A stretch of 52,638 nucleotides of DNA from Deltaproteobacteria bacterium (GTDB lineage: Bacteria; Myxococcota; JACRCW01). Positions 20,003-26,110 of this stretch are shown here, piece after piece. Where the stretch lies: NCBI GenBank assembly GCA_016218805.1, contig JACRCW010000156.1, forward strand, positions 1 through 52,638. Reading direction: 5' to 3'. A model generated the notes under the pieces. The model saw nothing but the letters and a program-made list of their open reading frames with translations. It ran no database searches and was not told where the DNA came from. A program made the position numbers and the translations under genes. Numbering within the stretch: position 1 is the stretch's first letter; every line of letters begins with the position of its first letter.

Positions 20003-20572
20003 ATGCAACTGCCGGTGCTCCATATCGAGTACCCCGCGTGGGTCGCCTCGCACGTTGACTGGGACCGCCCCTACCGTACCGACGAGGACCGGATGCGCCT
20101 CGCGATTGAGATGTCACGGCAGAACGTGGTGACGGGGACGGGCGGCCCGTTTGGCGCGGCCATCTTTGAGCGCGCGTCCGGGAAGCTGGTCAGCGTGGGG
20201 ATGAACAGCGTGGTCCGCTACAACAACAGCACGCTGCACGGCGAGATGATGGCGTTCATGATGGCGCAGGCGCGGTTGGGAAGTTTTACGCTGCGCGCCA
20301 AGGACGGGCCGGAGCATGAGCTGTTCACGTCGTGTGACCCGTGCGCCATGTGCCTGGGCGCCACCTTGTGGAGCGGCGTCACGCGCGCCGTGTGCGGCGC
20401 TGACCGTGAAGATGCGTTCCGGTTGCACTTTGAGGAGGGGCCGGTCTTCCCCGAGTCATTGCAGTATCTACGCAAGCGCGGCATTGAGATTGTGGCGGGG
20501 TTCCTGCGCGAAGAGGCCAACGCGGTCCTGGAACTGTACCGGCAGAACAAGGGCGTCATCTACAACGGGTGA
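20003..20572 (+). CDS. nucleoside/nucleotide deaminase (cytidine-deaminase superfamily, guanine deaminase/TadA-like)
   Basis: GGPFGA, HGE, CDPCAMC; GGAGGA RBS (alternative start 19964). Confidence 0.9.
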   Translation: MQLPVLHIEYPAWVASHVDWDRPYRTDEDRMRLAIEMSRQNVVTGTGGPFGAAIFERASGKLVSVGMNSVVRYNNSTLHGEMMAFMMAQARLGSFTLRAKDGPEHELFTSCDPCAMCLGATLWSGVTRAVCGADREDAFRLHFEEGPVFPESLQYLRKRGIEIVAGFLREEANAVLELYRQNKGVIYNG

Positions 20573-21023
20573 CGTTGGCCACGGCGGCGCGGACGGCGGA
20601 CACGGCGGCGGGAACCGCGCGCGCCACTGAGTCATTGAGTCCCTGGCCCATGGACGCCTGGTCCTCCACTTCAACGGCCACGACGTGGATGTGCCGCGGC
20701 ACCGGGGCGCCGAATGCGCGCGCCAGCCGCAGCGCGGTGGGCAGGCCGATGCCGTGCGTGGTGGGTCCCGCCGTGGCGGGGAGCGCATCCATGGGAAACT
20801 CCACAATGGACCCGGCAGGCCGCCGCCCGGATTGCACGGCATCCAGCAACACCACGGAATCAAAACCGTCCATGTCGTCCAGCAGGTGCAGGCCGGACAA
20901 CTCACTGCGGCGGATGACCGCGCCGGGTGGCGGGTCCCGCTCCAGTTCGTCCGCCACGCGCCATCCCACGCCGTCATCACGACGCAGCGGGTTGCCCAGG
21001 CACAGCACCAGGACCGCCGTCAT
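20556..21023 (-). CDS. hydrogenase maturation protease
   Basis: LGNPLRRDDGVG, LLDAV, TTHGIGL; directly downstream of the large subunit. Confidence 0.93.
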   Translation of the reverse strand: MTAVLVLCLGNPLRRDDGVGWRVADELERDPPPGAVIRRSELSGLHLLDDMDGFDSVVLLDAVQSGRRPAGSIVEFPMDALPATAGPTTHGIGLPTALRLARAFGAPVPRHIHVVAVEVEDQASMGQGLNDSVARAVPAAVSAVRAAVANVTRCR

Positions 21024-22501
21024 GCGTCGCCAGCAACCACCCCGCGTGACAGGCGGCGCACCAGCGTGCCGTCACGCGCGCGCACCTGCACGTCCAAGGG
21101 CATCTCCCCCGGCAGCGAATGCGACGCGCACGCGTTGCACGGGTCGTACGCGCGGTACGCCATCTCAAGCTGGTTGAGGATGGCGTCATCCACCTTGCCG
21201 CCGTGGATGAACCCGCGCGCCGCTTTCCGCACGGAAATCTGCACCGGCGCGGCGTTGTGCTGGGAGGCGACGATGAGGTTCACGTGCGTAAGGATGCCCT
21301 GTGCGTCGGTCTGGTAGTGGTGGATGAGCGTGCCGCGCGGCGCCTCCACAATGCCAATGCCCTCAGCGGGTGTGGCCTCAGGGATGCGGCGCACGTCCGG
21401 ACTACGCAGTTCCTCATCCTCCGCCAGCGCCGCAACGGCCTCCGCGGCCTGCATCACCTCCACCAGCCGGGCCCAGTGGAACGCCAGCGTGCGGTGCACT
21501 GGACGCCCGCCCAGGGCGGTGAACATCTTCTGCCGGTGCTCTTCCGCGCGCGGCGTGGCCATGCCGGTGGCGGCGTTGAGGCGTCCCAGCGGGCCCACGC
21601 GGTACAGGCTGCTGTCCGGTCCCTCTTCAAACCCCTTCCAGCCACGCGCGCGGAGGAACGGGAACTTCACGTACGTCCAACTCTCCGCGTGCTCGTCAAT
21701 GTGCTGTGCGTAGTCGCGCGCGGCAAACGTGAGCAGTTCGGCACCCGCGGTGTCCACCACGCGCACCCGGCCGCGGTAGAAGGTCACGCGGCCCTGGTCA
21801 TCCACCAGGCCCATGGAGTGGGTACGCAGGTTGAACGGTTCGGCCTCCATGGCCCGGTTCCACGCGTCCCCCGCCACGACGAGCTTGTAGAAGGTGTCCA
21901 GCGAGAATGCCGCGAAATCCACCAGCGAAGGAGCCAGCGCGCGGAGCTTTTCCAGCGTGGGAGGGGGCATGGGGCGGGACAGCCCGCCGGGCAGGGCAAA
22001 CACCGGATGTGCCGTGCGGCCGGACATTTCCCCCATGATGGCGCGCACCGCCTTGCGCGTGCTGACGACGCGCGCGCCCACGTCCGCACCCAGCTTGGCG
22101 ATGACGCCGAGCACGTTGCGCTGTGCTGGCGGCGTGTCCGCGCCCAGCAGCAGGTCCGGGCCGCCCAGGTAGTAGAAGTGGAGCGCGTGGTCCTCGAGAA
22201 TGAACAGGTTGTAATAGAGTTCCCGCAGTTTGTGGGCGGCCGGTGGCGGGTCCACCTTCCACAGGTCATCCAGCGCGCGCGCGGAGGCCAGGTGGTGCGC
22301 GGCAGGGCACACACCGCAGATGTGCGCGGTGATTTGCGGCATTTCCTCGGCGGGACGACCCACACAGAAACGCTCAAATCCACGCAATTCCGGAATCTGC
22401 AGGTACGCGTGCTCCACCTCGCCGGCGTCATTCAGGAAGATCTCAATCTTCCCGTGGCCCTCCAGGCGCGTCATGGGGTCAATGGTGATGCGCTGGCTCA
22501 T
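21020..22501 (-). CDS. mvhA: [NiFe]-hydrogenase large subunit, group 3c-like (MvhA)
   Basis: TRLEGHG, RGFE…ICGVC (L1), EAPRGTL, RAYDPCNACASH (L2) plus a cleavable C-terminal extension. Confidence 0.93.
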   Translation of the reverse strand: MSQRITIDPMTRLEGHGKIEIFLNDAGEVEHAYLQIPELRGFERFCVGRPAEEMPQITAHICGVCPAAHHLASARALDDLWKVDPPPAAHKLRELYYNLFILEDHALHFYYLGGPDLLLGADTPPAQRNVLGVIAKLGADVGARVVSTRKAVRAIMGEMSGRTAHPVFALPGGLSRPMPPPTLEKLRALAPSLVDFAAFSLDTFYKLVVAGDAWNRAMEAEPFNLRTHSMGLVDDQGRVTFYRGRVRVVDTAGAELLTFAARDYAQHIDEHAESWTYVKFPFLRARGWKGFEEGPDSSLYRVGPLGRLNAATGMATPRAEEHRQKMFTALGGRPVHRTLAFHWARLVEVMQAAEAVAALAEDEELRSPDVRRIPEATPAEGIGIVEAPRGTLIHHYQTDAQGILTHVNLIVASQHNAAPVQISVRKAARGFIHGGKVDDAILNQLEMAYRAYDPCNACASHSLPGEMPLDVQVRARDGTLVRRLSRGVVAGDA

Positions 22502-23910
22502 GGGAGCACCGGGAAGCGGCGCGCGGGGATGAGCGCGGACGCCATGGAGTAGCGGTAGAACGTCCCGGTGGGGTCCACAAACGCACCGGCTGCAGCGGCG
22601 GCACCCTCCGCGCTTTCACCGGCCAGCAGCGAACCCACCGCGCCGAGGAATGCCGCGCCCTGGTCCGTCACCCCGTCGGGCGGGCCAAAGCAGCCGCGGC
22701 ACGGCATGTTGGCGTTCATGCAGCTCTCTCCGCAGCCCTGGCGCGTGGCGGGGCCCAGGCACACCAGCCCGTCAGCCAGAAAGCATTTGTCCGGGTTGGG
22801 TTGGTAGGTGGCAATGCGCCGCATGCGGGACAGGTCCACCTTCTCCGGGCGTGACTCGCGGCGCGTGCACGTCTCGCACAGCGCGCGGCCGGGAGAGAGG
22901 ACGGCGCCGAACGGAGGCAGTTTCCCGGCCAGCAGCGCCTGTACCGCGGGGAGGATGACTTCCGTCGTCGGTGGACAGCCGGGCACGGTGCAGTCCACCG
23001 CCACCACTTCCGCCAGCGGCCGCACGCGCGCGCACAGGTCCGGCAGGTGCAACGCGTCGTGTTGCGTCCCGGGATGGTCCCCGTGTGAGACGGCACGGAT
23101 GGCGGCCGACCCGACGAGGTTGCCCAGCCCCACGATGCCCCCGAGGTGCGCACACGCTCCAAAGGCCACCACCACGCGGGACTTGCGCCGCAACAACTCC
23201 GCCATTTCCACCTGTTCCTGCGTGCGCACCGCGCCGTTGATGAAGCTGACGTCAATGTCGCCGTCGGGCAGCGCCTCAATGTCCTTGCGGCGGAAGTCCA
23301 GCGCCACAGGCCACAGCACCACGTCCGCCACCTCCAGCACCGCGTGCAGACCCTCCGCAAGGTCCACAATGGCCTCCTCGCATCCGCCGCAGGAGGCGTT
23401 CCAGTAGAACGCCAGGCGCGGCCGCCGTCCGGCGGGCGGGGCGGCGGCGGCCGGTCCCGGTTGCACGTGGGCCGGGACCGCGGAGGGCGCTTCTTCCAGC
23501 GTGGACCGGGCGTAGCTCAGGGGGCCCAACTGCTGCAGCGCGGCCGTCATCTCCCGCACCGTGGAGGCAAAATGCTCGCTTTCCGTGGCGGACGCCCACG
23601 TCATGCGGACACGCGCGGGTTCAAAGCCCAGGTCCGCCAGCGTGCGCTGCAACAGCGTGAAACGCGCCAGCGCCTCAATGTTTCCGCGCAGGTAATGGCA
23701 ATCCCCCGGGTGGCATCCGGCAACCAGGACGCCGTCCGCGCCCTCGCGCAGCGCCTGGACCACGTGCGTGGGCTCAATGCGGCCGGTGCACATCACGCGG
23801 ATGGTCAGCAGCGCCTGCGGGTAGACCAGGCGCTCGCGCCCGGCAGCGTCGGCCGCTGCGTAGGCGCAGTGATCGCACAGGAACGCCACAATGCGCGGGG
23901 TGAACGTCAT
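22498..23910 (-). CDS. fused MvhD ([2Fe-2S]) - MvhG (hydrogenase small subunit)
   Basis: N-terminal FLCDHCAY…RVMCTGR…GCHPGDCHY; Ala/Pro linker; SCGGC…GACA…PGCPP…CETC…CLGPATRQGC…PCRGC. Confidence 0.92.
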   Translation of the reverse strand: MTFTPRIVAFLCDHCAYAAADAAGRERLVYPQALLTIRVMCTGRIEPTHVVQALREGADGVLVAGCHPGDCHYLRGNIEALARFTLLQRTLADLGFEPARVRMTWASATESEHFASTVREMTAALQQLGPLSYARSTLEEAPSAVPAHVQPGPAAAAPPAGRRPRLAFYWNASCGGCEEAIVDLAEGLHAVLEVADVVLWPVALDFRRKDIEALPDGDIDVSFINGAVRTQEQVEMAELLRRKSRVVVAFGACAHLGGIVGLGNLVGSAAIRAVSHGDHPGTQHDALHLPDLCARVRPLAEVVAVDCTVPGCPPTTEVILPAVQALLAGKLPPFGAVLSPGRALCETCTRRESRPEKVDLSRMRRIATYQPNPDKCFLADGLVCLGPATRQGCGESCMNANMPCRGCFGPPDGVTDQGAAFLGAVGSLLAGESAEGAAAAAGAFVDPTGTFYRYSMASALIPARRFPVLP

Positions 23911-23924
23911 GGGAGCGGCCTCCG

Positions 23925-24146
23925 TCAGAACTGGATCTGGATGGTCAGCAACGGCGCCTTGCCGTTCACCGTCAGCACCATCTTCTTCTTCTTCTGGCAG
24001 AACTCACGGATATCCTTCTCAAACGACGGACAATCTCCCGATATTTCCACCAGCGTGCCCGGAGCCGTCTTTTGTGTGGCATTGGACAGGGCCAGCGTGG
24101 GGTGCGGACAGCGCAAACCTACAGCGTCAATCTTCTGGATCTCCAT
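23925..24146 (-). CDS. tusA: TusA-family sulfur carrier protein
   Basis: 73 aa, IDAVGLRCPHP (CPxP), G-x-L-x-I-x-x-D, DIREFC. Confidence 0.88.
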   Translation of the reverse strand: MEIQKIDAVGLRCPHPTLALSNATQKTAPGTLVEISGDCPSFEKDIREFCQKKKKMVLTVNGKAPLLTIQIQF

Positions 24147-24163: not shown

Positions 24164-26110
24164 TCAGTGACTCCGGGTGGTACCCTCCATGGCCAACAAT
24201 CCGCTGATTTCCGCGGAGACCTGGCGGTACTCAAACTGCGGACACGCAATGGCGAGCGACGGGCACGCTGCGGCGCACGTCCCGCACCCGCGGCAATGCG
24301 CGGGCTCCACGCGGCACTTGCCATCCGCGAGCGTGCGGATGGCTCCGTACGGGCACGCCGTCACGCACACGCCGCACGCTCCGCACCGCTCCGGGATGAC
24401 GCGCGCGGCCAGCGGTTCCAGCTCCAGCCGTTCGCCGGGGAGGCGGGTGGAGAGGATGCGCCCGGCCGCCGCGGTGCCATCCCGCACCACGTCACCCAGC
24501 GGGCGCGGGCCCAGCGCCGCGCCCACCACGTAGATCCCCGGCACGCGCGTTCCCGTTGGCACCAGCAGGTCAACGTCCGCTTCCAAGAATCCCTCCGCCG
24601 TGGTGCGCACGTGGAGATCGCGCGCCAGCTCGCCCACGGTGGAAGACGGACGCGTGCCGGTCCACAACACCACCAGGTCCGCGGTCCCCGTGGACGCCAG
24701 CTTGCCCGCGCGCCGGTAGGACACCCCGTTGTCCGTGGGAACCAGCGTTGCGGGGTCCAGCGCCCCGCTGGAGAACGCAACGCCCGCCGCGCGCAGCTGC
24801 TCAATCATGGGCGCGGCAAGTGTGGCTTGGTGGCAATCCCCCGCAAGTTGCAGCTCCACGCCCTCACAAACGTCCAACAGGCGGACGGCCAGCTTGGTCA
24901 GCTCGCGGCGGGCAAGGTCCGTGTCCCGCGCCGGCATCTCTGACGACGGCGCGAGCACCACGCGCCGCGGTACACCGCCGCCGGGCACCGTGACCTTGCC
25001 CGACGTGGGTCCCTGCGGATGCAGCATGCGCTCCAGTTGCACGCACGAGATGACCCCGGGCACCGCCGGGACCGGCAGCGTCTCCATCCCCGTGGCGACG
25101 ACCACCGCACCGCACGTCAACGTGCGGTTCACCGGCGCCCGCTGGAAATCAATGGCATTCATGGGGCAGGCCTGGACGCACGGTCCGTCACACCCCGCGC
25201 CGTTGCACCGGCCGCAGTGCACCGGGTCCACGTGTGACACGTGCGGCAGCGACCCTGAGTACGCCATGCCGATCGCCTTGCGCTGGCCCACGCCCTCGTC
25301 GAGCGGATCGGGGAAGGACACGGGGCAGGCCGCGGCGCATTCCCCCGCACCCATGCACCGCGACGGGTCCACCGCCGGCGCGGCGGATTCCACCTCAACG
25401 GTGAACTGCCCGTGGAAGCCCTTCACGGAGACCACGCGGGATTCGCGCAGGACGTCAATCTGCGGGTGGTCCAGCACCTGGTTGATGGCCGGCTCCAGGA
25501 AACAGGACGCACACTTCATGGACGGGAAGACCTCATCCAACCGCGCAAGCAGTCCGCCCAGCGCGGCGCTGCGTTCCACCAGCGCCACGCGCCGGTTCTT
25601 CTGCGCCAGCGTCAGCGCGGCGGACAGCCCCGCCATTCCCCCACCAATTACGACGACATCCGCGCTGGCCTCCACCGTGCGCGTTTCCACCGCTTCCTGT
25701 TGCGCGGCCCGCCACAGTGCGCCCCGCACCAGGCCGCGCGCCCGCACGGTCGCCTGGCCGTCGTCGTCGCCCTGCCATTCGCACTGCTCCCGCAGATTGG
25801 TCATCTGCAACAGGAACGGGTTGAGTCCCGCGTCGGCCAGCACCTGCCGGAAGGTCGCTTCGTGCTCATGCGGTGAGCACCCGCCAATCACCACGCGGTC
25901 CAGTCCCTGCGTCCGCACCTGCTCAGCAAGCTTGGCTTTCCCGTCGGGCGCGCACAGAAACGCGTGCCGCTGCACCACCGCCGCCTCCGGCCACGCCTCC
26001 TGTGCCGCCAGGTCATCCAGCCGGATGGCGTTTCCCATGTTGGGACCGCACTCGCAGAAGAACAGGCCAATCCGTGGTGACGGAGTTGGCTTGCCATGCT
26101 GTTCACTCAC
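24164..26110 (-). CDS. hdrA: heterodisulfide reductase subunit A-like flavo/Fe-S protein
   Basis: RIGLFFCECGPN…GCSP…NLREQC, VIGGGMAG FAD motif, FPSMKCASC, inserted and C-terminal ferredoxin motifs; GGAGG RBS. Confidence 0.9.
   Translation of the reverse strand: MSEQHGKPTPSPRIGLFFCECGPNMGNAIRLDDLAAQEAWPEAAVVQRHAFLCAPDGKAKLAEQVRTQGLDRVVIGGCSPHEHEATFRQVLADAGLNPFLLQMTNLREQCEWQGDDDGQATVRARGLVRGALWRAAQQEAVETRTVEASADVVVIGGGMAGLSAALTLAQKNRRVALVERSAALGGLLARLDEVFPSMKCASCFLEPAINQVLDHPQIDVLRESRVVSVKGFHGQFTVEVESAAPAVDPSRCMGAGECAAACPVSFPDPLDEGVGQRKAIGMAYSGSLPHVSHVDPVHCGRCNGAGCDGPCVQACPMNAIDFQRAPVNRTLTCGAVVVATGMETLPVPAVPGVISCVQLERMLHPQGPTSGKVTVPGGGVPRRVVLAPSSEMPARDTDLARRELTKLAVRLLDVCEGVELQLAGDCHQATLAAPMIEQLRAAGVAFSSGALDPATLVPTDNGVSYRRAGKLASTGTADLVVLWTGTRPSSTVGELARDLHVRTTAEGFLEADVDLLVPTGTRVPGIYVVGAALGPRPLGDVVRDGTAAAGRILSTRLPGERLELEPLAARVIPERCGACGVCVTACPYGAIRTLADGKCRVEPAHCRGCGTCAAACPSLAIACPQFEYRQVSAEISGLLAMEGTTRSH

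What the first reader, a model, noticed from the sequence alone, without database searches (positions are those of the whole stretch)
24780..25100. HdrA has lost the Cys ligands of its thioredoxin-reductase-domain [4Fe-4S] cluster
Seen: after QLERMLHPQGPTSG, canonical HdrA carries C-x-GSR…CS-x-x-CC-M-x-x-x-K. This protein reads VVLAPSSEMPARDTDLARRELTK, with all four Cys gone while the flavin-proximal Glu (LER) and Lys appear retained. The first inserted ferredoxin motif is also altered (CMGAGEC rather than CxxCxxC), whereas the N-terminal cluster and both C-terminal ferredoxin motifs are intact. Established: this cluster is the high-potential exit towards HdrC/B. Inference: selective loss of this site together with hdrBC suggests a rewired HdrA subclass rather than random decay.
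Basis: partly seen in the sequence, partly recalled or inferred. Interest (0 to 1): 0.75.

Follow-up and report, generated by a model that had tools for sequence, protein, structure and literature searches.

The report
HdrA lacking its exit iron-sulfur cluster
This bacterium's hydrogenase-linked HdrA flavoprotein belongs to a conserved subclass that has lost the iron-sulfur cluster that normally passes electrons to HdrBC, has no HdrBC, and is always encoded beside a small three-cysteine sulfur-carrier protein (TusA) that may be its new partner.

Summary
The 648-aa HdrA homologue (24164-26110, minus strand) lacks all four Cys of the thioredoxin-reductase-domain cluster HA4: three are replaced (S389, A400, R401) and one is deleted. 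It keeps E360 and K406 (E356/K409 of the solved enzyme), the N-terminal Cys set, the flavin-side C200xxC203 pair, all 8 C-terminal ferredoxin Cys and 7 of 8 inserted-ferredoxin Cys (CMGAGEC).

This is not decay. In a tree built without that segment, 49 homologues at 38-66% identity form one clade and none has the ligand motif. The AF2 model is confident (pLDDT 95). In 20 of 20 related genome loci the operon is tusA + hdrA + mvhD-G fusion + mvhA + protease with no HdrB. In the same phylum, 7 of 7 HdrAs with the canonical motif sit beside HdrB/HdrCB and none beside TusA.

One nuance: three relatives without adjacent HdrBC still keep the four Cys, so HdrBC loss came first. The CMGAGEC change is shared only with the two nearest homologues.

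Best mechanism (inferred): H2-derived electrons leave at the flavin or its Cys pair to sulfur or a disulfide on the three-Cys TusA, with the ferredoxin branch retained.

This scan has noted Mvh-HdrA-TusA operons on other DNA. My searches found no paper describing the HA4 loss. It is a new variant of a known kind.

The parts
24164..26110 (-). hdrA-like gene, 648 aa. It has the N-terminal 4-Cys domain, FAD/thioredoxin-reductase fold, inserted ferredoxin domain and C-terminal ferredoxin domain. Cluster HA4 ligands are absent.
   Evidence: ORF. Pfam Pyr_redox_2 and Fer4. PDB HdrA 5odc_A at 1.2e-103. AF2 pLDDT 95.4, pTM 0.92. Foldseek 8rvy_A TM 0.80 over the full length.
24875..24967 (-). Residues 382-412, the segment that in canonical HdrA carries C-x-GSR...CS-x-x-CC...K. 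Here it reads RRVVLAPSSEMPARDTDLARRELTKLAVRLL, with S389, a gap, A400 and R401 at the four ligand columns and K406 kept.
   Evidence: The model shows a strand at 383-389 and a helix at 394-414 with block pLDDT 96-98.
25031..25033 (-). Codon of E360 in LERM, which aligns with E356 of 5odc_A.
   Evidence: alignment. Invariant in the clade. PMC12054007 names E356 and K409 as key flavin residues.
25502..25513 (-). C200-A-S-C203, the flavin-domain CxxC pair. It aligns with C194/C197 of 5odc_A.
   Evidence: Cys in 53 of 53 HA4-less sequences and 90-92% of 48 canonical ones. Positions counted on the alignment. PMC13518236 reports a Cys-Sec197 pair between a cluster and the FAD.
25325..25357 (-). First motif of the inserted ferredoxin domain, C252-M-G-A255-G-E-C258-A-A-A-C262. 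The second Cys is replaced by Ala.
23925..24146 (-). tusA-like gene, 73 aa, with three Cys invariant across the orthologues: C13 in the CPxP motif, C39 in GDC, and C50.
   Evidence: Pfam TusA 1.3e-12, 47.8 bits against a cut-off of 28.6. Alignment of 21 orthologues.
22498..23910 (-). mvhD-mvhG fusion, 470 aa: a [2Fe-2S] connector domain joined to the hydrogenase small subunit.
   Evidence: Pfam FlpD 1e-47 and Oxidored_q6 9.5e-23. NCBIfam VhuG/VhuD. The MvhD Cys pattern is kept.
21020..22501 (-). mvhA, the [NiFe] hydrogenase large subunit of Mvh/Vhu (group 3c) type, 493 aa.
   Evidence: Pfam NiFeSe_Hases. NCBIfam VhuA 3.2e-105, below the equivalog cut-off. ICGVCPAAH and DPCNACASH are in the translation.
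20556..21023 (-). Hydrogenase maturation protease, 155 aa.
   Evidence: Pfam HycI. TIGR00072 1.4e-32.

Best explanation
The gene encodes an intact, folded HdrA-type flavoprotein of a conserved bacterial subclass. It is the flavin and iron-sulfur core of a five-gene soluble hydrogenase module (hdrA, tusA, mvhD-G fusion, mvhA, protease). Shown: the subclass lacks cluster HA4, the one-electron exit towards HdrC/HdrB, and has no HdrBC gene beside it. It keeps everything else: the N-terminal cluster ligands, FAD motifs, E360/K406, the flavin-side C200xxC203 pair, and the C-terminal and inserted ferredoxin domains. It is always co-encoded with a dedicated TusA carrying three invariant cysteines. Inferred mechanism: H2 is oxidised by MvhA and electrons reach the HdrA flavin through MvhG and MvhD, as in methanogens. 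The high-potential half-reaction no longer runs through an Fe-S wire to a CCG-domain subunit. Instead it takes place at or next to the flavin, most plausibly through the C200/C203 dithiol as in a true thioredoxin reductase. The acceptor would be a persulfide, polysulfide or disulfide on the TusA cysteines. The retained ferredoxin-type domains remain the low-potential branch to ferredoxin, so the enzyme may still bifurcate. In this protein and its two nearest homologues, one inserted-domain cluster has only three Cys and may be a [3Fe-4S] or otherwise ligated cluster.
For: Loss is complete and clade-wide: 0% Cys at the four ligand columns in 53 sequences against 96-100% in 48 canonical ones. 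The main clade of 49 is monophyletic in a tree built without that segment. The closest homologues also lack the motif. The fold is kept: pLDDT 95.4, and full-length match to solved HdrA with TM 0.80. E360, R361 and K406 are invariant in the clade. C200/C203 are Cys in 53 of 53. Context: tusA+hdrA+mvhDG+mvhA+hycI in 20 of 20 related genome loci, with HdrB-like genes in 0 of 20. Canonical-motif loci have HdrB-like genes in 7 of 7 and tusA in 0 of 7. Flanks of two HA4-less loci and of the window hold unrelated housekeeping genes. Among TusA-anchored metagenome loci, 55 of 80 have HdrA or MvhDG adjacent and 0 of 80 have an HdrB-like gene. Of 26 loci where the segment is readable, 25 lack the motif. 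TusA has three invariant Cys. Literature passages read: HA4 is the high-potential exit and HA3/HA5/HA6 the low-potential branch (PMC12350162). A Cys-Sec197 pair next to the FAD may be a redox-active bridge of unresolved role (PMC13518236).
Against: No experiment or structure links TusA to HdrA, so adjacency is the only evidence. The 20 genome loci come from one family and amount to roughly one evolutionary event. The C200/C203 pair is also conserved in canonical HdrA (90-92%), so it is not a special adaptation of this subclass. A dithiol is a two-electron centre, and how it could replace a one-electron cluster in bifurcation is unclear. At least 7 of the 25 metagenome loci without an HdrA/Mvh hit (L111, L126, L127, L161, L170, L178, L180) have flanks long enough to show this TusA type in other contexts. 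Relatives that keep HA4 also have tusA (L092, L181), so TusA does not require HA4 loss. Two HdrD-like Fer4+CCG proteins exist elsewhere in the genome. Residues 382-476 evolve faster than the rest of the protein.
Confidence: 0.5

Rival explanations
1. Plain, non-bifurcating ferredoxin-linked hydrogenase. With HA4 and HdrBC gone, the flavin and the ferredoxin-type domains simply wire Mvh to ferredoxin (H2 uptake or H2 evolution from reduced ferredoxin). TusA would have an accessory, regulatory or unrelated role.
For: Every cluster of the low-potential branch and the hydrogenase input path is kept, and the only missing site is the high-potential exit. No acceptor-binding subunit other than TusA is encoded in the operon. 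This TusA type also occurs away from HdrA.
Against: E360 and K406, proposed as markers of bifurcating HdrA (PMC12054007), remain invariant. tusA stays inside the operon in 20 of 20 loci and in two different gene orders, which argues for a functional tie. H2 to ferredoxin alone is uphill (general knowledge).
Confidence: 0.25
2. The high-potential acceptor subunit is encoded elsewhere. One candidate is either of the two HdrD-like Fer4+CCG proteins on other contigs. It would dock on HdrA and take electrons by a route that does not need HA4.
For: Two proteins with a ferredoxin domain plus CCG domains exist in the genome: 613 aa on contig C161 and 489 aa on C65.
Against: They are not near hdrA, and CCG proteins are common in many genomes (12 of 14 control genomes). 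In all solved complexes the route to HdrC runs through HA4 (PMC12350162 legend), and its ligands are gone. No HdrB-like gene lies in 0 of 20 related loci or 0 of 80 metagenome loci.
Confidence: 0.1
3. The vacated domain has regained a pyridine-nucleotide site, as in thioredoxin reductase. The enzyme would then be an H2:NAD(P)+ (and ferredoxin) oxidoreductase.
For: The segment sits in the Rossmann-type domain that binds NADPH in thioredoxin reductases, and the fold there is kept (strand 383-389, helix 394-414).
Against: The segment RRVVLAPSSEMPARD has no glycine-rich GxGxxG/A loop, and the clade consensus (V/I)LLAxxxAxxD has none either. The protein's only GxGxxG is the FAD one at 156-161.
Confidence: 0.05
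4. Decaying gene: the copy is losing function and the Cys loss is part of random erosion.
For: Residues 382-476 have a higher dN than the whole gene, and crude dN/dS values of 0.5-1.2 appear in many clade pairs.
Against: The frame is intact at 648 aa and the operon is conserved in 20 of 20 loci. The clade averages 58% pairwise identity, and the segment itself 50%. The same stretch (413-476) is also the most variable part of canonical HdrA, at 21% against 38% overall. The closest pair gives dN/dS 0.22 for the whole gene and 0.21 for the region. The other values are inflated by GC3 of 85-99%, which compresses dS.
Confidence: 0.03

Closest known systems
MvhAGD-HdrABC / Elp-Hdr / Fdh-Hdr of methanogens (solved: 5odc, 8rvu/8rvy, 7bkb)
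   Same: HdrA has the same four-domain architecture and fold over its full length (TM 0.80 to 8rvy_A). FAD motifs, E356/K409 equivalents, N-terminal cluster ligands, both ferredoxin domains, MvhD, MvhG and MvhA are all present.
   Different: All four HA4 ligands are missing. No HdrB/HdrC is present. A three-Cys TusA lies in the operon. MvhD and MvhG are fused. One inserted-domain Cys is missing. The organism is a bacterium without methanogenesis.
sHdrA of the sulfur-oxidising sHdr system (Hyphomicrobium denitrificans, 6tjr)
   Same: It has an HdrA-type flavoprotein core (Foldseek TMt 0.83). That system is genetically tied to TusA-type sulfur carriers (PMC6776052 passages).
   Different: It is the mirror image. 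sHdrA (349 aa chain) is the minimal form, which by recall keeps FAD and the single thioredoxin-reductase-domain cluster. The window protein keeps all the other domains and clusters and lacks exactly that one. sHdr works with HdrB/C-like subunits and lipoate-binding proteins, not with a hydrogenase.
QmoA / HdrA2 and other HdrA-superfamily flavoproteins
   Same: They share the FAD domain and the FPxxxCxxC region.
   Different: The QmoA-named hit P0104, the unnamed 416-aa hit P0108, the HdrA-named Methanosarcina hit P0082 and the Methanobrevibacter hit P0073 (source name 'hydrogenase iron-sulfur subunit') all keep CxGSR...CSxxCC. The site lost here is therefore among the most widely kept in the superfamily.
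Low-Mr thioredoxin reductase (e.g. 3cty, 5mh4)
   Same: The two-Rossmann-domain fold is shared (Foldseek hits). The proposed mechanism works like it: flavin to a Cys pair to a small protein disulfide or persulfide.
   Different: There is no NADPH site. The CxxC lies in the FAD domain rather than the NADPH domain. Electrons come from a hydrogenase through Fe-S clusters.
Mvh-HdrA-TusA operons noted earlier in this scan on other genomes (e1-4743058, e1-7471520, e1-3302832)
   Same: A hydrogenase or MvhD plus HdrA plus a multi-Cys TusA, with no HdrBC.
   Different: Those are unchecked AI notes on other DNA, and the summaries shown do not mention the HA4 ligands. Here, relatives with tusA occur both with the Cys (L092, L181) and without them (this clade).

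Membership tests
HdrA (heterodisulfide reductase subunit A, methanogen type) | Overall four-domain fold: N-terminal domain, thioredoxin-reductase fold, inserted ferredoxin domain and C-terminal ferredoxin domain | tested here: met
   AF2 pLDDT 95.4. Foldseek full-length matches to 5odc_A, 8rvy_A and 7bkd_A with TM 0.67-0.80. phmmer 1.2e-103.
HdrA (heterodisulfide reductase subunit A, methanogen type) | FAD site with E356 and K409 equivalents | tested here: met
   GxGxxG at 156-161. E360 and K406 are present and invariant in the clade.
HdrA (heterodisulfide reductase subunit A, methanogen type) | Four Cys of the thioredoxin-reductase-domain [4Fe-4S] cluster HA4 (C-x-GSR...CS-x-x-CC) | tested here: not met
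   S389, a gap, A400 and R401 occupy the ligand columns.
HdrA (heterodisulfide reductase subunit A, methanogen type) | Eight Cys of the inserted ferredoxin domain | tested here: not met
   Seven of eight are present. C255 is Ala, in a column that is Cys in 100 of 107 sequences.
HdrA (heterodisulfide reductase subunit A, methanogen type) | N-terminal cluster Cys and eight Cys of the C-terminal ferredoxin domain | tested here: met
   C19, C21, C53, C78 and C576, 579, 582, 586, 606, 609, 612, 616 are present.
HdrA (heterodisulfide reductase subunit A, methanogen type) | Partner subunits HdrB/HdrC (CCG domains) encoded with it | tested here: not met
   There is no CCG domain in the window operon. 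The only CCG matches in the genome are on contigs C161 and C65. NCBIfam HdrA models score far below their cut-offs: 438 against 1100, 349 against 1300, and 328 against 1400.
Group 3c (Mvh-type) [NiFe] hydrogenase | MvhA large subunit with the L1 ICGxCxxxH and L2 DPCxxCxxH motifs (as given in PMC6085437), plus MvhG and MvhD | tested here: met
   ICGVCPAAH and YDPCNACASH are in the 493-aa translation. VhuA 3.2e-105 and VhuG/VhuD matches, all below the equivalog cut-offs. FlpD and Oxidored_q6.
TusA family (PF01206) | Pfam model above its gathering score, and an active-site Cys in the CPxP motif | tested here: met
   47.8 bits against a cut-off of 28.6. RC13PHP is invariant across 21 orthologues. 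NCBIfam TusA and YedF equivalogs fall below their cut-offs, so it is a family member and not an orthologue of E. coli TusA.
Flavin-based electron-bifurcating enzyme | H2-dependent coupled reduction of a low-potential and a high-potential acceptor | not testable with these tools
   This needs enzyme assays. Only the sequence markers E360 and K406 could be checked.

The most novel reading that the evidence does not exclude
The complex is still an electron-bifurcating hydrogenase. Its high-potential acceptor is sulfur or a disulfide carried on a dedicated three-cysteine TusA, and it is reduced directly by the flavin-adjacent Cys200/Cys203 pair. The whole HA4-HdrC-HdrB wire has been replaced by thiol chemistry. 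That would be a natural HdrA that bifurcates without HA4. It would give a physiological role to the Cys(Sec) pair beside the flavin, whose function the 2026 M. maripaludis structure paper left open. It would also name the long-unknown acceptor of bacterial Mvh-HdrA modules.
Probability: 0.2. Interest if true: 0.85.

Novelty: new variant of a known kind. Interest (0 to 1): 0.6.

Why it matters
HdrA is the model for flavin-based electron bifurcation, and HA4 is the accepted first stop of the high-potential electron. A conserved, otherwise complete HdrA without HA4 and without HdrBC is a natural knock-out of that branch. It can show whether bifurcation needs HA4 and what the flavin-side Cys pair does. 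It can also show what bacterial Mvh-HdrA modules reduce, with the co-encoded three-Cys TusA as a concrete, testable candidate. The clade is common in one family of the window's phylum (34 of 67 sampled genomes). One member carries the source name Anaeromyxobacter terrae. The question therefore also bears on H2 use by abundant soil and groundwater bacteria.

Tried and rejected
(1) Complex prediction of HdrA (alignment A1) with TusA (alignment A3) gave 'no answer': scores 0.00 and 0.07 against a mark of 0.32, and controls were not run. It is not used either way.

It returned almost only unrelated flavoproteins, so the scan was wasted. I used the genome search instead.

(3) Expression: no RNA holder is listed for the operon. 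There are only 4 DNA runs from one study.

(4) Nei-Gojobori dN/dS was done, but I do not trust it beyond the closest pair. GC3 of 0.85-0.99 compresses dS, and all window pairs are saturated (dS 0.9-1.2).

(5) Selenocysteine: a '1 TGA' flag on the clade member of G207 proved to lie outside the HdrA frame. Its CxxC is ECASC.

(6) Two home-made GC-frame gene callers mis-called strands in high-GC loci. I replaced them with tblastn synteny plus Pfam on filtered ORFs.

(7) Protein Atlas look-alikes only repeated 'HdrA family'.

(8) My regex count of the motif over all 257 fetched proteins was too strict, because it demanded the Lys. It is not used. The alignment count is used instead.

(9) Wagner et al. 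2017 (Science) and Appel et al. 2021 (BBA) are not held. The residue numbers C386/C399/C403/C404 for HA4 are recalled, not read. Appel et al. may already classify HdrA variants by cluster content.

I could not measure the distances between C200/C203, the flavin site and the former HA4 pocket.
Full report
**What is there.** The finding lies in a 648-aa ORF on the minus strand (24164-26110). It heads a compact same-strand operon:
- hdrA, 24164-26110.
- A 73-aa TusA-family gene, 23925-24146 (Pfam TusA 1.3e-12).
- A 470-aa fusion of MvhD (FlpD domain) and MvhG (Oxidored_q6), 22498-23910.
- MvhA, 21020-22501.
- A hydrogenase maturation protease, 20556-21023.

The genes on either side are unrelated: a divergent 5'-nucleotidase, a convergent deaminase, a GH31 glycosidase, a thioesterase and a peroxiredoxin. 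The assembly (6.4 Mb, 170 contigs, 92% complete) has only this one HdrA.

**Checking the observation.** The quoted peptide is exactly what 24893-25042 encodes. phmmer finds solved HdrA chains (5odc_A at 1.2e-103), but the alignment breaks at q386/q477, over the cluster segment.

I aligned 107 HdrA homologues of 560-700 aa (A2). Of the 114 proteins in that length range I dropped P0099, whose sequence looks out of frame. I also dropped P0086, P0091, P0092, P0094, P0097 and P0215, which are short or of other architecture. All six of those show the canonical Cys.

In A2 the four ligand columns are Cys in 96-100% of the 48 sequences with at least 4 Cys in the segment. They are Cys in 0% of the 53 sequences with none, and six sequences are partial. 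The window protein has S389, a gap, A400 and R401 at those columns. A profile alignment to the solved M. marburgensis chain shows HCVGSRDE..YCSRVCCMYIMK at the same place.

E360 matches E356 of 5odc_A (counted). K406 sits five residues after the last ligand column, as K409 does. C415 and C426 are private to this protein (2% and 4%), so no alternative Cys set is conserved. The second observation, CMGAGEC, is also real, though it lies at 25337-25357, outside the stated range. The N-terminal Cys, the C200xxC203 pair and all eight C-terminal ferredoxin Cys are present. Contigs from three DNA runs of one study, one of which may be the source, carry the segment without any difference.

**Decay or subclass?** The nearest homologues lack the motif too: P0002 (66%), P0003 (51%) and about 45 more at 38-52%. 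P0002 keeps a single Cys at the first ligand column.

A FastTree tree built after removing the segment puts P0001-P0046 and P0109-P0111 in one clade. All 49 have 0 Cys in the segment except P0002 with 1. I did not inspect branch supports.

Neighbouring branches mix sequences with 0, 1-3 and 4 Cys (P0115, P0122, P0127, P0129, P0137 against P0123, P0124, P0162). The site has therefore probably been lost more than once in this part of the family.

Within the clade, E360, R361 and K406 are invariant and E403 is at least 90% conserved. Mean pairwise identity of residues 382-412 is 0.50 against 0.58 overall. The fast-evolving part is 413-476 (0.37), which is also the most variable part of canonical HdrA (0.21 against 0.38).

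Crude dN/dS is 0.22 for the whole gene and 0.21 for residues 382-476 in the closest pair. Higher values in more distant pairs are not reliable at GC3 of 0.85-0.99.

AlphaFold2 on A2 gives pLDDT 95.4 and pTM 0.92. The segment forms a confident strand (383-389) and helix (394-414). Foldseek matches solved HdrA over the full length, with TM 0.80 to 8rvy_A.

**Context test.** A search of 401 genomes of the window's phylum found HdrA-like matches in 58. Of these, 34 are among the 67 genomes of one family. The only other genome of the window's own family has none.

I fetched about 8 kb of flank on each side for 20 of the 29 best non-self places. I left out G372, G207, G210, G323, G306, G206, G143, G382 and G358. 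I also fetched flanks for 10 of the weaker places.

| HdrA type | Loci | tusA adjacent | HdrB/HdrCB-like adjacent |
|---|---|---|---|
| HA4-less, with mvhD-G fusion, mvhA and hycI | L072-L091 (20) | 20 of 20 | 0 of 20 |
| Canonical CxGSR...CSxxCC | L095-L101 (7) | 0 of 7 | 7 of 7 |
| Intermediate: C...CSxxCC...K kept, 'GSR' lost | L092-L094 (3) | 1 of 3 (L092) | 0 of 3 |

In the HA4-less loci, tusA lies upstream of hdrA in 17. It lies between hdrA and mvhDG in 3, as it does in the window. L092 is mvhD-hdrA-tusA without a hydrogenase.

The 20 HA4-less loci are kin from one family, so they count as roughly one event and not as 20 independent ones.

**An independent, TusA-anchored scan.** A scan of metagenome contigs returned 80 loci. 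HdrA or MvhDG is adjacent in 55 of them and an HdrB-like gene in none. The HA4 segment is readable in 26 of them:
- 22 have no Cys.
- 3 have one unaligned Cys upstream.
- 1 (L181, mvhA-hdrA-tusA) keeps HC...CSKLCC.

At least seven of the 25 loci without an HdrA/Mvh hit have enough flank to show that this TusA type also occurs elsewhere. In L161, L126 and L127 it sits beside a class IV aminotransferase. In L111 it is near a peroxiredoxin fragment and a 2-thiouracil desulfurase, and in L178 near a rhodanese.

**The inserted-domain change.** The clade consensus keeps CxGCGxC. Only P0001, P0002 and P0003 have lost that Cys outright (A, A and L). P0004 and P0110 have it shifted by two positions. 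It is a stable trait of the window's own small branch. It fits a three-Cys site such as a [3Fe-4S] cluster, which is an inference from general ferredoxin knowledge.

**Mechanism.** From passages I read:
- The high-potential electron leaves the flavin via HA4 towards the heterodisulfide. The low-potential electron goes to HA3 in the C-terminal domain and then to HA5 and HA6 (PMC12350162, figure legend).
- E356 and K409 are the flavin residues proposed to mark bifurcating HdrA (PMC12054007, passages).
- In M. maripaludis a Cys-Sec197 pair lies between a cluster and the FAD and may be a redox-active selenylsulfide of unresolved role (PMC13518236, passages).

The window's C200/C203 align with C194/C197 of 5odc_A. 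Equating these with the M. maripaludis pair is my inference.

The subclass thus keeps the input path, the flavin with its marker residues, the Cys pair and the whole low-potential branch. It has lost only the one-electron exit and the CCG subunits. The TusA beside it has three invariant Cys: C13 in CPxP, C39 and C50.

The best-supported reading is that the high-potential half-reaction has moved to thiol chemistry at the flavin, with TusA-bound sulfur or a TusA disulfide as acceptor. Ferredoxin reduction may be retained. Adjacency is the only evidence for the TusA link.

The rivals are:
- A plain ferredoxin-linked hydrogenase.
- A distant CCG partner, since two HdrD-like proteins exist on other contigs.
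- A regained NAD(P)H site, although no glycine-rich loop is present.
- Decay.

**Comparison and novelty.** The protein works like an HdrA and has its fold, but it fails three defining features: the HA4 ligands, one inserted-domain ligand and the HdrBC partnership. It also scores far below NCBI's HdrA cut-offs.

The site it lacks is kept in the QmoA-named hit P0104, in P0108 and in the two archaeal hits P0082 and P0073 that I checked. It is, by recall, the only cluster of sHdrA (6tjr). The loss is therefore unusual within the superfamily.

Seven full-text searches found no description of an HA4-less HdrA or of an Mvh-HdrA-TusA enzyme. Appel et al. 2021 and Wagner et al. 2017 could not be read.

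Earlier notes of this scan describe Mvh-HdrA-TusA operons without HdrBC on other genomes. They agree with the context found here, but as shown they do not mention the cluster loss.

My verdict is a real, conserved, new variant of a known kind. It has a testable candidate partner but no biochemical evidence yet.

Noticed in passing
window 22498-23910 (-); L072-L091: MvhD and MvhG are fused into one roughly 470-aa protein in the window and in all 20 HA4-less loci, where tblastn gives a single hit over residues 1-464. In the canonical and intermediate loci L094, L097 and L099 they are separate genes. The fusion looks like a second clade-specific trait.
   Followed up: partly
window 23925-24146 (-): The tusA gene has 55% G+C and GC3 of 0.76, inside a region of about 69% G+C where the neighbouring genes have GC3 of 0.82-0.88. 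I did not pursue the cause, which could be Lys-rich composition or a foreign origin.
   Followed up: no
A2 column of window residue S287: A Cys in the inserted ferredoxin domain (consensus PYxGCLPH) is present in 74% of the HA4-less set and 2% of canonical HdrAs. The window protein has Ser there. Conversely, a Cys at the column of A532 (GACQGP) is found in 52% of canonical HdrAs and 0% of HA4-less ones.
   Followed up: no
L002 = G000:C154:6867-10091 (ORF 592-2781, minus): The genome's only other FlpD (MvhD-like) domain sits in a 730-aa fusion of cytochrome b, a 2x[4Fe-4S] ferredoxin and FlpD. This is an unusual membrane-anchored MvhD-type protein. A weak TusA-family match lies about 8 kb away on the same contig.
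   Followed up: no
L161, L126, L127 (metagenome contigs): Copies of the same three-Cys TusA type, about 50-57% identical, occur without HdrA or Mvh directly upstream of a class IV aminotransferase and a HEAT-repeat protein. They may be a second, housekeeping paralogue in the same organisms.
   Followed up: partly
tallies: The operon is patchy. It is absent from the one other sampled genome of the window's family and from one of the two genomes sampled from the other family of its class (the other holds only a weak HdrA match, E 6.5e-68, not examined). Yet it is present in 34 of 67 genomes of another family of the phylum. The window's HdrA is only about 50% identical to those, so horizontal transfer or repeated loss is possible.
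   Followed up: no
window 25282-25858, run X1: Two short low-depth contigs in run X1 differ from the window at 33 and 17 positions, which suggests a second strain or relative in the sample. One X1 contig joins 24564 to 25073, skipping 508 bases, with only 25 letters on the shorter side. That is probably a chance or foreign match.
   Followed up: no
L092 (G045:C29): A hydrogenase-less mvhD-hdrA-tusA trio that keeps the HA4 Cys is followed by two STAS-domain proteins, a SpoIIE-type phosphatase and an anti-sigma-type kinase. This hints at a regulatory or sensing use of the module in some relatives, as one earlier scan note (e1-3302832) also suggested for another genome.
   Followed up: no
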